From Escherichia coli (GTDB lineage: Bacteria; Pseudomonadota; Gammaproteobacteria; Enterobacterales; Enterobacteriaceae): a DNA stretch of 64,000 nucleotides. Below the pieces are notes generated by a model that ran no database searches, was not told where the DNA came from, and was given only the letters and a program-made list of their open reading frames with translations. Below are positions 23,976 to 51,947 of this stretch, piece by piece. The translations under genes and the position numbers were made by a program. Positions within the stretch are counted from its first letter, which is position 1, and every line of letters begins with the position of its first letter. The stretch lies in assembly GCF_050320075.1 (NCBI RefSeq), contig NZ_CP190018.1. One strand, given 5' to 3'.

Positions 23976-24602
23976 ATGGCTAGGGGTAGGCGTCTCAAAT
24001 CCTATTTGGATTATGAAAATGCGCTAGGTGACGGCATAGGAGTGGGCTATGGCCAAAGTTATCAGCCCTGGCTTAGAGCTCAGGACGTTAAATCCCGTGG
24101 AAACCGTTCGATAGTCTTTGGCCTTAAGACGTTTCGAAACCATCATCTCCTTTCTTCTGTCGAAAGTAACTTTTTCTATCTGGCTGAGTTTAATGACTCG
24201 GTGATTGATATCCGGGAACAATTCCCACTCTTTCCTCTCCGGCTTACCCAACAAATAGCAAATCATCTACATTTTCAACATCCTATGGTGAGGGGAGTAA
24301 GAGGAGTACCTGTCGAAGTTCTGAATGTTATGACAACCGATTTTTTACTGACCTTGAGAACTCCTGAAGGCGGACTTCGATACAAAGCTATAGCAGTAAA
24401 ACATAACGAGAGCATACCTGAACGCGAAGCCCAAAAACTTGAAATAGAGAGGATGTTTTGGCAGTTGATTGATGTTGAGTTTCAAATTTATGTTGGCTCG
24501 GAACTCAATAACGTCGTCGGTAAAAACATTTGCTGGGCTACTTCTGTATTAAGAGATGGTTCTGAATTTTATGATAAATATCCTCTTGATAAAATCCGGT
24601 AA
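23976..24602 (+). pseudogene. tnsA: tnsA-like transposase endonuclease subunit, 3'-truncated by IS1
   Basis: 208-aa ORF with recalled similarity to Tn7 TnsA (YQPWL..., VIDIREQFPL..., DFLL motifs); the reading frame runs into the IS1 terminus and stops there, lacking roughly the last 60 residues. Confidence 0.7.
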
Positions 24603-25365
24603 TGACTCCAACTTATTGATAGTGTTTTATGTTCAGATAATGCCCGATGACTTTGTCATGCAGCTCCACCGATTTTGAGAACGACAGCGACTTCCGTCCC
24701 AGCCGTGCCAGGTGCTGCCTCAGATTCAGGTTATGCCGCTCAATTCGCTGCGTATATCGCTTGCTGATTACGTGCAGCTTTCCCTTCAGGCGGGATTCAT
24801 ACAGCGGCCAGCCATCCGTCATCCATATCACCACGTCAAAGGGTGACAGCAGGCTCATAAGACGCCCCAGCGTCGCCATAGTGCGTTCACCGAATACGTG
24901 CGCAACAACCGTCTTCCGGAGCCTGTCATACGCGTAAAACAGCCAGCGCTGGCGCGATTTAGCCCCGACGTATCCCCACTGTTCGTCCATTTCCGCGCAG
25001 ACGATGACGTCACTGCCCGGCTGTATGCGCGAGGTTACCGACTGCGGCCTGAGTTTTTTAAATGGCGGAAAATCGTGTTGAGGCCAACGCCCATAATGCG
25101 GGCAGTTGCCCGGCATCCAACGCCATTCATGGCCATATCAATGATTTTCTGGTGCGTACCGGGTTGAGAAGCGGTGTAAGTGAACTGCAGTTGCCATGTT
25201 TTACGGCAGTGAGAGCAGAGATAGCGCTGATGTCCGGCGGTGCTTTTGCCGTTACGCACCACCCCGTCAGTAGCTGAACAGGAGGGACAGCTGATAGAAA
25301 CAGAAGCCACTGGAGCACCTCAAAAACACCATCATACACTAAATCAGTAAGTTGGCAGCATCACC
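24598..25365 (-). mobile_element. insAB: IS1 (768 bp), copy A; insA 25035-25310 and insB 24613-25116 on minus strand
   Basis: Complete IS1 with terminal GGTGATGCTGCCAACTTACTGAT inverted repeats; flanking 9 bp differ (taaaatccg vs tgaaacccg), so no intact target-site duplication. Confidence 0.95.
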
Positions 25366-25575
25366 TGAAACCCGATAATGTACTAGATAAATTCTGGCCT
25401 CAGATGACATCAGAAAGAATCATCTCAAGATCAACCTATCATGACGGAACGCAGGAGAGAAGCGAGCTGGTTGAGATCCTGAGCGACATTGTATCCATGA
25501 CGAGATAATGTATTAAATAAGCATCTCAGGTGCATATATTCCGGTCCTCAACAAAGGACCGGAGTACAGAGTAGT

Positions 25576-25599
25576 AAAAACCCGAAATTAATCGGGTTT
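25576..25599 (-). terminator. Hairpin (aaacccgaaattaatcgggttt) downstream of the DUF305-like gene
   Basis: Inverted repeat with A/T-rich flanks; a second hairpin (ccggtcctcaacaaaggaccgg) lies just upstream at about 25540. Confidence 0.35.
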
Positions 25600-25676
25600 G
25601 AATTATATAAAGATTAACCGACTCCCGCGCCCAGGAACGATGTAAAATCACGCTTGTCGTGACATTTCTACAATGT

Positions 25677-26027
25677 TTACTTTTGACTATCAAGCCATTT
25701 ATTCATCTGCTCAATTTCACCTTTTTGAGCTTTAATGATGTCCTGCGCGAGCTTTCTCATTTTCGGATCTTTTCCGTATTTGAGCTCGGTCTCAGCCATT
25801 GCTATTGCCCCTTCATGGTGCGCTACCATGCCTTTCGCAAAAGCCTTGTCGGGATCGGACTCATTTACGGCAGCCATCATTTTGTCATGCATGTCTTTCA
25901 TGCCAGCCATATATTCCTGTGACGAAGCCGAGGTAGACATATCAGTCATTTTCATTTCTGAATGTTCTGCTGAAATCGCTGGCAGGGATAACATTAATAC
26001 TGCAAATAAAGTGTTTCTGGCTTTCAT
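25677..26027 (-). CDS. Small periplasmic DUF305-like protein, putative metal-binding accessory protein
   Basis: 116-aa ORF with signal peptide and the HH...E motif (VAHHEGAIAMAE) typical of DUF305 four-helix proteins; family call from memory. Confidence 0.5.
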   Translation of the reverse strand: MKARNTLFAVLMLSLPAISAEHSEMKMTDMSTSASSQEYMAGMKDMHDKMMAAVNESDPDKAFAKGMVAHHEGAIAMAETELKYGKDPKMRKLAQDIIKAQKGEIEQMNKWLDSQK

Positions 26028-50282: not shown

Positions 50283-50419
50283 GACCAACACTGTCACGTA
50301 ACGCCAGATAACTACAAAAACACCTTTTTCCTCCTGTAAATTGCAGTTCCTGCAAGAACATCAAGGTATAATGTTGGAACAGCGTGTGATACACACTTAG
50401 CATCATGTTTTGTATGTGT

Positions 50420-50487
50420 TTTTTTAAAACTTTACAACTTTAAAGTCTTTTTCAGGTTAAAGGATACAACTTTAATGTCTCTACACA
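50420..50487. repeat. Tn7-like left end with TACAACTTT repeats
   Basis: Inverted counterpart of the right-end repeats (about 50432 and 50465), terminal ...ACA at 50487 followed by ATTGCA. Confidence 0.6.
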
Positions 50488-50822
50488 ATTGCAGCGAAGT
50501 CGTCCTGAGCTATTTCCTAAAGATGAAAATTATTAGAGTCGCATTAAAAATGAGCTAATTTTGATAGTGGTTATCTTGTGATTATTTTCTAATGAGCCTG
50601 TGAACTGAGACCCTCCATGCTTAATATAAGGTGGAGGGAAAGGTGATTAAAACTCCCCCAGTGGCCAGATCTTTATAAAATATGAACAGGTTGAAAAAAT
50701 CAGCAACTTAGCTGTTTATTTATACTTAACCACTATGCATTAATGCTGCGTTATTTCATGATACCTAAGAAAAACCAGCGTTACGCAAATAATCAACGCT
50801 GGTTTTATCCGGTACGTTGCAA

Positions 50823-51179
50823 TTATTTTTTAGCAGAACCCGCTTCTAATATTGAAACGATTGAGAACAACGTAAAGCATACCGCTCCCAAACCGACCAG
50901 AACCCGCGAAGGAATAAAATATCCCATATCGGTCTGCGCCATTTCCGCAAGAAACGATGCCAGGAAAAGGCAAAACAGGCAGGTGAAGACGGGAATCATC
51001 GGTATTCTGTTGGCTAACGAACAGGTACGTCTCCAGACCAGTGCCAGTAGCCAGACTTTTGAGAATATGCTGTAACAGATCATTCCGAGGCAAATGAGGA
51101 TAATGCCGGGAGCCAGTCGGGCGCTTGCATCGGAGCTGACTAACACGTATATGCCCTGCAGCACCGTGATTGAGCCGAG
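50823..51179 (-). pseudogene. yhiM: 3' fragment of inner-membrane protein gene (yhiM-like by position), 5'-truncated by IS1
   Basis: Hydrophobic open frame that runs without a stop into the IS1 terminus at 51180; identity inferred from position convergent with yhiN. Confidence 0.5.
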
Positions 51180-51947
51180 GGTGATGCTGCCAACTTACTG
51201 ATTTAGTGTATGATGGTGTTTTTGAGGTGCTCCAGTGGCTTCTGTTTCTATCAGCTGTCCCTCCTGTTCAGCTACTGACGGGGTGGTGCGTAACGGCAAA
51301 AGCACCGCCGGACATCAGCGCTATCTCTGCTCTCACTGCCGTAAAACATGGCAACTGCAGTTCACTTACACCGCTTCTCAACCCGGTACGCACCAGAAAA
51401 TCATTGATATGGCCATGAATGGCGTTGGATGCCGGGCAACCGCCCGCATTATGGGCGTTGGCCTCAACACGATTTTCCGCCATTTAAAAAACTCAGGCCG
51501 CAGTCGGTAACCTCGCGCATACAGCCGGGCAGTGACGTCATCGTCTGCGCGGAAATGGACGAACAGTGGGGATACGTCGGGGCTAAATCGCGCCAGCGCT
51601 GGCTGTTTTACGCGTATGACAGGCTCCGGAAGACGGTTGTTGCGCACGTATTCGGTGAACGCACTCTGGCCACACTGGAGCGTCTTCTAAGCCTGCTGTC
51701 GGCCTTTGAGGTCGTGGTATGGATGACGGATGGCTGGCCGCTGTATGAATCCCGCCTGAAGGGAAAGCTGCACGTAATCAGCAAGCGTTACACTCAGCGA
51801 ATTGAGCGGCATAACCTGAATCTGAGACAACATCTGGCAAGGCTGGGACGGAAGTCACTGTCGTTCTCAAAATCGGTGGAGCTGCATGACAAGGTCATCG
51901 GGCATTATCTGAACATAAAACACTATCAGTAAGTTGGAGTCATTACC
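51180..51947 (+). mobile_element. insAB: IS1 (768 bp), copy B; insA 51235-51510, insB 51429-51932
   Basis: Complete IS1 in opposite orientation to copy A; flanking 9-mers (tgagccgag vs cgctgacag) are unrelated, so no target-site duplication. Confidence 0.95.

What the first reader, a model, noticed from the sequence alone, without database searches (positions are those of the whole stretch)
24598..51947. Two inverted IS1 copies, neither with a target-site duplication, bracket the island cargo
IS1 copy A (24598-25365) and copy B (51180-51947) are complete and in opposite orientation 25.8 kb apart. Copy A lies inside the island and copy B in the chromosome beyond it. Both lack flanking 9-bp repeats, so each is likely the scar of an IS1-mediated deletion. 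The inverted pair is also a substrate for recombinational inversion of the whole metal-resistance block.
Basis: seen in the sequence. Interest (0 to 1): 0.45.

Follow-up and report, generated by a model that had tools for sequence, protein, structure and literature searches.

The report
Two IS1 deletion scars flanking sil/pco
Two ordinary IS1 insertion sequences in an E. coli chromosome each sit exactly where DNA has been deleted, one disabling the Tn7-like transposon that carries the silver/copper resistance genes and one removing neighbouring chromosomal genes; this is a well-known kind of IS-driven genome decay.

Summary
IS1 A (24598-25365, minus) and IS1 B (51180-51947, plus) are complete 768-bp elements, 97% identical, inverted and 25,814 bp apart. 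Neither has a target-site duplication.

The window is E. coli chromosome, 100% identical to strains YZLc1-3 and Ec-U3. The "island" is the known Tn7-like sil/pco element (CHASRI) inserted at the 3' end of yhiN, spanning 23818-50487. IS1 A lies 780 bp inside its tnsA end. IS1 B lies 692 bp beyond its other end.

Intact relatives show a deletion abutting both ends of each IS1:
- At A, 9,213 bp of the island is missing: the tnsA 3' end, tnsB, tnsC, tnsD, two small genes and most of an OLD/AriA-like ATPase-TOPRIM gene.
- At B, 3,465 bp of chromosome is missing: the yhiM 5' part, yhiL and the yhiJ 5' part.

The copies are different, individually common IS1 isoforms, so they arrived independently. 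The cargo is collinear with intact islands and the flanks show no swapped duplications, so no inversion has occurred. No inversion isomer exists among 5,426 complete genomes.

I cannot tell transposase-mediated adjacent deletion from IS1-IS1 recombination. The finding is ordinary.

The parts
22630..23853 (+). yhiN. Its 3' end is the attachment site of the Tn7-like island, and the reading frame runs 36 nt into the island.
   Evidence: RefSeq annotation of the identical record NZ_CP123240.1; empty-site comparison.
23812..23817 (.). Target duplication of the Tn7-like island, right-end side: ATTGCA. It is 6 bp here, against 5-bp ATTGC in the other genomes examined.
23818..50487 (+). Tn7-like sil/pco island (CHASRI), 26,670 bp, with TGTCC...CACA ends and repeated AAGTTGTA motifs inside both ends.
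   Evidence: Empty sites in VL40 and CFSAN061763 map to 23817|50488. The same element lies between yhiN and yhiM in 647 E. coli genomes and is described in PMC8417528 and PMC4824010.
23976..24597 (+). Truncated tnsA: the first 622 nt. The 3' 221 nt is deleted.
   Evidence: Annotated as partial TnsA; aligned to L004 3166-3787.
24598..25365 (-). IS1 copy A, IS1B-type isoform. It is complete, with IRR at 24598 and IRL at 25365, and has no TSD. It replaces 9,213 bp of island DNA.
25366..25508 (+). Last 143 nt of the OLD-family (AriA-like ATPase + TOPRIM) gene; 1,684 of its 1,827 nt are deleted.
   Evidence: Annotation; alignment to L004 13001-13143; PADLOC AriA 4.2e-55, plus GajA and Old matches, for the intact protein.
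25677..47457 (.). Metal-resistance cargo: copM, silESRCFBA, a DUF411 gene, silP, pcoABCDRSE and neighbouring genes. It is in the same order and orientation as in intact islands.
   Evidence: It is 99.94% identical and collinear with E. coli 55989 over 19.6 kb.
47583..50282 (-). ISCro1 (IS66 family) inserted between pcoE and the island's left end. This is a simple insertion with a 7-8 bp duplication, GACCAAC(N).
50488..50493 (.). Second copy of the island's target duplication (ATTGCA).
50823..51179 (-). Truncated yhiM (DUF2776): the 3' 357 nt remains and the 5' 696 nt is deleted.
   Evidence: Annotation; 100% alignment to CFSAN061763 L009 2844-3535.
51180..51947 (+). IS1 copy B, a different and widespread isoform. 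It is complete, has no TSD, and replaces 3,465 bp of chromosome.
51948..53034 (+). Truncated yhiJ (DUF4049): the 5' 536 nt is deleted. The whole paralogue yhiL is also missing.
   Evidence: Annotation; alignment to L009 starting at 7001.

Best explanation
Two separate IS1 elements of different isoforms inserted independently. One went into the Tn7-like sil/pco transposon sitting at yhiN. The other went into the yhiM-yhiL-yhiJ region just outside it.

At each site the DNA next to the IS1 was then lost while the IS1 stayed intact. That loss erased the 9-bp target duplication.
- At A, 9,213 bp was removed: the tnsA 3' end, tnsB, tnsC, tnsD, a TniQ-like gene, an HTH gene and most of an OLD/AriA-like defence gene.
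- At B, 3,465 bp was removed: the yhiM 5' part, yhiL and the yhiJ 5' part.

The most likely mechanism is the classical IS1 adjacent deletion, which is an inference. In intramolecular replicative transposition an IS1 end attacks a nearby target. One original junction is kept, one new junction is made, and the intervening DNA is lost as a circle.

Consequences, also inferred: the island keeps both ends and all its metal-resistance cargo but has lost its own transposition genes. It is now fixed in place unless TnsABCD is supplied in trans. The inverted orientation of the two IS1 copies is coincidental, and no inversion between them has occurred.
For: Deletions shown directly:
- Window 19002-24597 and 25366-45000 align to 55989 positions 1-5597 and 15588-35223. 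With CP66-6 the gap is exactly 3788-13000, which is 9,213 bp. The genes in that gap are listed.
- Window 50488-51179 and 51948-59797 align at 100% and 99.96% to CFSAN061763 positions 2844-3535 and 7001-14850. The 3,465 bp between them holds the yhiM 5' part, yhiL and the yhiJ 5' part.

Independent arrival:
- A and B differ at 22 sites.
- The B isoform occurs as 100% identical full-length copies at many loci in many chromosomes and plasmids.
- A differs by only 6 nt from the IS1A-type copies seen elsewhere.

No inversion:
- The cargo is collinear with intact islands.
- The flanks do not cross-match between the copies.

Recurrence of the same kind of event:
- At least five different IS1-bounded deletions without a TSD occur in yhiM-yhiJ: the window, VL40, XD35/TA8571, LR883050/99-3165 and PCP06171.
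- Simple IS1 insertions with an 8- or 9-bp TSD occur in the same genes, in ECONIH4 and 118C.
- In strain 2017-19-1CC another IS1 sits 12 bp from A's tnsA junction and deletes through to pcoD.

The ISCro1 in the same island kept its duplication, so TSD loss is specific to the two IS1 copies.

Literature: missing TSDs are attributed to adjacent deletion or IS-IS recombination (PMC11708052). The Tn7/pco/sil element inserts between yhiN and yhiM (PMC8417528).
Against: No genome in the collections carries just one of A's two junctions or B's left junction, so there is no precursor with an intact TSD. The order of events is therefore not shown, and neither is which IS1 end stayed in place.

B's right junction also occurs in VL40, but with another isoform and in another genetic background. 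That points to a hot spot rather than to a shared ancestor.

Sequence alone cannot separate a transposase-made deletion from RecA recombination between two same-isoform IS1 copies in direct orientation.
Confidence: 0.9

Rival explanations
1. Each deletion arose by homologous (RecA) recombination between two IS1 copies in direct orientation. These had inserted separately at the two end points, each with its own TSD. The crossover left one IS1 flanked by one half of each duplication.
For: This is a recognised cause of IS copies without a TSD (PMC11708052). Both regions attract many IS1 insertions:
- tnsA.
- tnsD in 55989.
- The 3' end of the OLD gene, 7 bp away in Ec-RL2-1X.
- The OLD-copM spacer, in many genomes and plasmids.
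- yhiM, yhiL and yhiJ.

The source chromosome has about 22 IS1 places.
Against: No genome with the required pair of insertions, or with either single insertion, was found among 5,426 E. coli genomes or 72,556 plasmids. This route needs three events per site instead of two.

The one hint I looked for was that IS1 B might be a hybrid of two isoforms. It failed: the exact B sequence is a common isoform found at many loci.
Confidence: 0.3
2. One-step insertion with deletion. An incoming IS1 joined its two ends to two distant target sites in one non-concerted transposition event, so no TSD and no precursor ever existed.
For: IS arrivals that coincide with a large deletion and leave no TSD have been reported for other IS families (PMC11708052). 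The lack of any single-junction precursor fits this reading.
Against: In the same paper every such case in the long-term evolution lines turned out to be a stepwise adjacent deletion. The absence of precursors is weak evidence, because only two genomes of this lineage were available.
Confidence: 0.08
3. The missing duplications come from an inversion between the two copies. This could be homologous inversion of the 25.8-kb segment, or a duplicative inversion in which one IS1 copied itself in inverted orientation.
For: The copies are inverted and share perfect runs of 261 and 224 bp.
Against: An inversion would leave swapped duplications, with the upstream flank of A equal to the downstream flank of B. 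The four 9-mers do not match in any pairing.

The segment between the copies has the same orientation relative to yhiN and yhiM as in intact islands. Both flanks of each IS1 are collinear with a single reference apart from a gap.

The copies differ at 22 sites and belong to different common isoforms, so one is not a fresh copy of the other.
Confidence: 0.01
4. The unit IS1-cargo-IS1 is a composite transposon that inserted here as a whole.
For: Composite transposons bounded by inverted IS1 copies are known; Tn1681 is an example (from my own knowledge).
Against: The outer flanks, ATAAAATCC and CGCTGACAG, are not a duplication.

The DNA inside and outside each IS1 is contiguous island or contiguous chromosome. 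The island's own left end and 692 bp of native chromosome lie inside the unit.

Neither outer junction occurs anywhere else in the genome or plasmid collections.
Confidence: 0.01
5. One copy is an assembly artefact, such as a collapsed or misjoined repeat.
For: IS1 is present in many copies, about 22 places in the source chromosome.
Against: The two copies differ at 22 positions. All four junctions are identical in two separately deposited complete genomes from different hosts, at the same spacing of 26,582 bp. Each flank pair is collinear with a reference genome.
Confidence: 0.01

Closest known systems
IS1-promoted adjacent deletions (classical E. coli genetics; Reif and Saedler 1975 for the gal region, cited from my own knowledge) and IS copies without a TSD in general (PMC11708052)
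   Same: An intact IS1 sits with a deletion starting exactly at its end. There is no 9-bp duplication, and the flanks are collinear with the undeleted reference.
   Different: Both junctions of each copy are unique to this lineage, so I cannot name the retained end. A two-IS1 recombination origin is not excluded.
Tn7-like pco/sil transposon (CHASRI) inserted between yhiN and yhiM (PMC8417528, PMC4824010)
   Same: The attachment site, the ends, the cargo order and a sequence 99.9% identical to the islands of 55989 and others.
   Different: This copy has lost tnsA' through tnsD and the accessory and defence genes to the IS1 A deletion. It has gained ISCro1. It is flanked by a 6-bp rather than a 5-bp duplication.
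IS1-bounded composite transposons: Tn9 with direct copies, Tn1681 with inverted copies (from my own knowledge)
   Same: Two complete IS1 copies bracket a block of resistance genes. As in Tn1681, the copies are inverted.
   Different: There is no duplication around the unit and no second location. The bracketed DNA includes a transposon end and native chromosome. The pair arose in place by two unrelated events.

Membership tests
IS1 family insertion sequence | Length of about 768 bp with roughly 23-bp imperfect terminal inverted repeats (GGTGATGCTGCCAACTTACTGAT / GGTAATGACTCCAACTTATTGAT) | tested here: met
   Both copies are 768 bp and have both repeats.
IS1 family insertion sequence | insA and insB' frames joined by a -1 frameshift at an A6C motif, encoding an IS1 transposase | tested here: met
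   Both copies have an intact 91-aa insA, TTAAAAAACTC at position 305 and an open 167-aa insB'. They match NCBIfam NF033558 at 143.7 and 146.5 bits against a cutoff of 100. PGAP annotates both as complete with a programmed frameshift.
IS1 family insertion sequence | A direct target duplication, usually 9 bp, flanking a simple insertion | tested here: not met
   Neither copy has a duplication. The deletions mapped explain this. It is a property of the insertion event rather than of the element, so it does not argue against membership. Other IS1 copies in the same genes do have 8- or 9-bp duplications.
Tn7-like transposon (CHASRI pco/sil element at yhiN) | TGT...ACA ends with repeated TnsB-type binding motifs, inserted at a fixed site at the 3' end of a conserved gene with a 5-bp duplication | tested here: met
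   The ends are TGTCC...CACA and carry AAGTTGTA repeats. The site is the same as in 647 genomes. The duplication is 6 bp (ATTGCA) here, against 5 bp elsewhere.
Tn7-like transposon (CHASRI pco/sil element at yhiN) | Encodes the heteromeric transposase and targeting proteins TnsA, TnsB, TnsC and TnsD | tested here: not met
   Only the first 622 nt of tnsA remain. tnsB, tnsC and tnsD lie in the 9,213-bp gap. This copy is a non-autonomous derivative.
IS1 composite transposon | The whole IS-cargo-IS unit is flanked by one target duplication and is found at more than one location | tested here: not met
   The outer flanks differ. The junctions are found only at this locus in two genomes and in no plasmid.

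The most novel reading that the evidence does not exclude
Having lost its Tn7-type transposition genes, the sil/pco block could now move as a 27.35-kb composite transposon. It would be bounded by the two inverted, apparently functional IS1 copies, with both outer ends being IRR. That would give the metal-resistance genes a second, non-site-specific route onto plasmids. The evidence neither shows nor excludes this: the unit is seen only at this one locus.
Probability: 0.04. Interest if true: 0.35.

Novelty: already known. Interest (0 to 1): 0.1.

Why it matters
The finding has little wider consequence. It is a clear worked example of how IS1 erodes a mobile resistance island. The silver/copper cargo is kept, while the transposition genes and an OLD/AriA-like defence gene are lost, so the island becomes a fixed part of the chromosome.

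It also shows how a neighbouring dispensable region is whittled away by IS1. For surveillance, sil/pco in this lineage should now spread vertically or by homologous recombination rather than by Tn7-type transposition.

The side observation that yhiM-yhiJ has repeatedly suffered IS1-bounded deletions may interest people who study IS target choice.

Tried and rejected
1. Hybrid-IS1 scar. The 22 differences between A and B cluster in positions 487-750, with only 1 in positions 1-486. I suspected B was a recombinant left by a crossover between two isoforms. I rejected this because the exact B sequence is a common isoform at many loci.

2. Inversion or duplicative inversion. I tested all pairings of the four flanking 9-mers and the orientation of the cargo. 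There was no support.

3. Search for precursors with a single junction.
- E. coli complete genomes and plasmids gave none for A or for B's left junction.
- Apparent one-junction hits turned out to be other insertions: Ec-RL2-1X is 7 bp away and has an 8-bp TSD; CP66-6-type copies are 226 bp away; 2017-19-1CC is 12 bp away.

4. VL40 shares B's right junction. I considered common descent and rejected it. The IS1 isoform differs at 28 sites and the flank at about 3%. The window's nearest relative, CFSAN061763, has an intact yhiJ with a 100% identical flank. The junction is therefore a hot spot.

5. Search for a same-backbone relative carrying the island with intact tns genes, to date the events. 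None was found: only the two identical genomes have this backbone-plus-island junction.

6. I ran no further search on inversion-junction probes. Only 2 of 5,426 genomes carry the parental arrangement, so a hit was very unlikely.
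Full report
**Observation**

The window holds one long inverted repeat, 24598-25365 and 51180-51947. It is 768 nt long, 97% complementary, with 25,814 nt between the arms.

Both arms are complete IS1 elements.
- Both have the terminal repeats.
- Both have an intact insA, the A6C frameshift motif and an open insB' frame.
- Both match the NCBIfam IS1 transposase model above its cutoff.
- Copy A is on the minus strand, with IRR at 24598. Copy B is on the plus strand.

The 9-mers next to the ends are ATAAAATCC and TGAAACCCG for A, and TGAGCCGAG and CGCTGACAG for B. There is no duplication at either copy. There is also no match between copies in the arrangement an inversion would leave.

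**Context**

The window is 100% identical to the chromosome of E. coli YZLc1-3 (chicken, China) and matches Ec-U3 (human) equally well over the stretches searched. The annotation gives this gene order:
- chu, slp, ars, gor, prlC, dtpB, uspA, uspB, pitA, yhiN;
- then a truncated tnsA, IS1 A, and the last 143 nt of an ATPase/TOPRIM gene;
- then copM, the sil genes, the pco genes and an IS66-family ISCro1;
- then a truncated yhiM, IS1 B, a truncated DUF4049 gene (yhiJ), yhiY, yhiI, rbbA and yhhJ.

The "island" is the known Tn7-like pco/sil element, CHASRI. Its transposition into the E. coli chromosome between yhiN and yhiM has been documented (PMC8417528; PMC4824010). A place covering at least 80% of the yhiN-tnsA junction region occurs in 647 of 5,426 complete E. 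coli genomes.

Empty sites in VL40 and CFSAN061763 place the island at 23818-50487, with TGTCC...CACA ends carrying repeated AAGTTGTA motifs. IS1 A therefore starts 780 bp inside the tnsA-side end. IS1 B starts 692 bp beyond the other end, in the chromosome.

**The deletions**

*Copy A.* Against the intact island of CP66-6, the left flank of A ends at locus position 3787 and the right flank begins at 13001. That leaves 9,213 bp missing. E. coli 55989 gives the same end points. The missing stretch holds:
- the last 221 nt of tnsA;
- tnsB, tnsC and tnsD;
- a 308-aa TniQ-like protein gene;
- a small HTH gene;
- 1,684 of the 1,827 nt of an AAA-ATPase/TOPRIM gene.

The ATPase/TOPRIM protein matches the PADLOC models AriA (4.2e-55), GajA and Old.

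The island on both sides of A is 99.9% identical to 55989. It differs at 1 of 780 nt on the left and 11 of 19,636 nt on the right. The chromosomal backbone is only 98.6% identical. Both flanks therefore belong to one island copy.

*Copy B.* CFSAN061763 has neither the island nor the IS1, and it shares identical RbbA, YhiI and YhhJ proteins with the window. Against it, the left flank of B ends at 3535 (100% identity) and the right flank begins at 7001 (99.96% over 7.85 kb). That leaves 3,465 bp missing: the first 696 nt of yhiM, all of yhiL and the first 536 nt of yhiJ.

**What the two copies are to each other**

They differ at 22 positions.
- A is an IS1B-type copy. It is 6 nt from the IS1A-type copies found in 55989, CP66-6 and VL40.
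- B is another isoform. It occurs as 100% identical full-length copies at many unrelated loci in many chromosomes and plasmids.

They are thus independent arrivals, not a copy of one another. That rules out a duplicative inversion. It also removed my own idea that B is a hybrid left by a crossover between two isoforms.

The segment between the copies is collinear with intact islands and with the chromosome. No inversion has taken place.

In the two genomes that carry the pair, the spacing and relative orientation are the same. No genome shows a flank-plus-IS1 combination that would mark an inversion isomer. With only two carriers, that is weak evidence about the rate.

The copies share perfect runs of 261 and 224 bp, so RecA-dependent inversion is possible in principle. 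The source chromosome has about 22 IS1 places, so this is one of many such pairs.

**Mechanism**

What is shown:
- Each IS1 is intact.
- Each is bounded on both sides by DNA that is separated by 9.2 kb or 3.5 kb in relatives.
- Neither has a duplication.

What is inferred: how the DNA was lost.

I favour the classical IS1 adjacent deletion, meaning intramolecular replicative transposition. It needs only one prior insertion and one further event. The same pattern also recurs around these sites.
- At least five different IS1-bounded deletions without a TSD exist in yhiM-yhiJ. In CFSAN061763 coordinates the junctions are:
  - the window, 3535|7001;
  - VL40, 3246|7001;
  - XD35 and TA8571, 3461|7469;
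  - LR883050 and 99-3165, 4001|7557;
  - PCP06171, 5491|7023.
- Simple insertions with 8- or 9-bp duplications occur in the same genes, in ECONIH4 and 118C.
- In the island, strain 2017-19-1CC has an IS1 12 bp from A's tnsA junction with a deletion reaching pcoD.
- Ec-RL2-1X has a simple IS1 insertion 7 bp from A's other junction, with an 8-bp duplication.

The main rival is recombination between two directly oriented IS1 copies. It cannot be excluded, because no precursor of either kind was found in 5,426 E. coli genomes or 72,556 plasmids. Both routes are the accepted explanations for IS copies without duplications (PMC11708052).

The ISCro1 in the same island kept its 7-8 bp duplication. 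Loss of duplications is therefore specific to the two IS1 copies.

**Order of events**

The nearest backbone relatives have none of the following: the island, ISCro1, or either IS1.

Only YZLc1-3 and Ec-U3 combine this backbone with the island. Their island is flanked by a 6-bp ATTGCA duplication instead of the usual 5-bp ATTGC. This suggests a separate insertion event in this lineage.

An island without tnsB, tnsC and tnsD could not have transposed by itself. The IS1 A deletion therefore most likely followed the island's arrival, which is an inference. The IS1 B deletion is unrelated to the island. Two other yhiM-yhiJ IS1 deletions occur identically in genomes with and without the island: XD35 versus TA8571, and LR883050 versus 99-3165.

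**Consequences (inferred)**

- The island keeps both ends and all its metal-resistance genes but is non-autonomous.
- The OLD/AriA-like gene, yhiM, yhiL and yhiJ are inactivated or lost.

**Comparison with known systems and verdict**

Everything here belongs to known kinds: IS1, IS1-associated deletions, and the Tn7-like pco/sil island at yhiN. The pair does not meet the test for a composite transposon. There is no outer duplication, no second location, and a transposon end plus native chromosome lie inside the unit. It could conceivably act as one in future.

The finding is ordinary and I score its interest low.

Noticed in passing
window 23812-23817 and 50488-50493: The Tn7-like island is flanked by a 6-bp repeat, ATTGCA. 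Four other genomes with the same island have ATTGC|TGTCC at the right-end junction (55989, CP66-6, 2017-19-1CC, Ec-RL2-1X), and the left-end junction seen in 2017-19-1CC, XD35 and LR883050 reads ACA|ATTGC, giving the usual 5-bp duplication. The extra A extends the yhiN reading frame by 21 nt (407 aa against 400 aa). This is either an atypical 6-bp stagger in a separate insertion event or a later 1-bp insertion.
   Followed up: partly
window 50823-53034; loci L007, L008, L011-L016: The yhiM-yhiL-yhiJ region is a recurrent site of IS1 activity across E. coli. At least five different IS1-bounded deletions without a TSD and two simple insertions were seen. The window and VL40 share the exact IRR|CGCTGACAG junction despite different IS1 isoforms and backgrounds, so this is an apparent IS1 hot spot. 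I do not know whether the recurrence reflects AT-rich target preference or selection for loss of these genes.
   Followed up: partly
window 25366-25508; L004 11317-13143: Intact copies of the island carry a 608-aa AAA-ATPase/TOPRIM (OLD-family) gene. Its N-terminal 375 residues match the PADLOC AriA model (4.2e-55), and it also matches GajA and Old. It is probably an anti-phage defence gene travelling with the metal-resistance cargo. Only its last 143 nt survive here. IS1 insertions cluster at and just after its 3' end in many chromosomes and plasmids.
   Followed up: partly
window 47583-50282: An ISCro1 (IS66 family, tnpA-tnpB-tnpC) is inserted between pcoE and the island's left end. It has a 7-8 bp duplication, GACCAAC(N). 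It is absent from 2017-19-1CC, XD35 and LR883050 at this position.
   Followed up: yes
window 11820-11933 and 12054-12167: The only long direct repeat in the window (114 nt, 89% identical) corresponds to two copies of the AgrB antisense RNA family (Rfam RF02891, 106 and 98 bits) next to dinQ. This is a known feature.
   Followed up: yes
window 1573-1604: A shuA/chuA 5'-UTR RNA thermometer (Rfam RF02597, 60.1 bits against a gathering score of 58) lies just upstream of chuA.
   Followed up: no
window 6217-7440: A 407-aa hypothetical ORF lies in a markedly AT-rich stretch (32-34% GC) between slp and a permease gene. It looks foreign to the surrounding chromosome, which is about 50% GC.
   Followed up: no
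L011/L013 and L012/L014: Two other yhiM-yhiJ IS1 deletions are each found with identical junctions in one genome that has the sil/pco island and one that lacks it. In those lineages the IS1 deletion either predates the island's arrival or has moved by recombination.
   Followed up: partly
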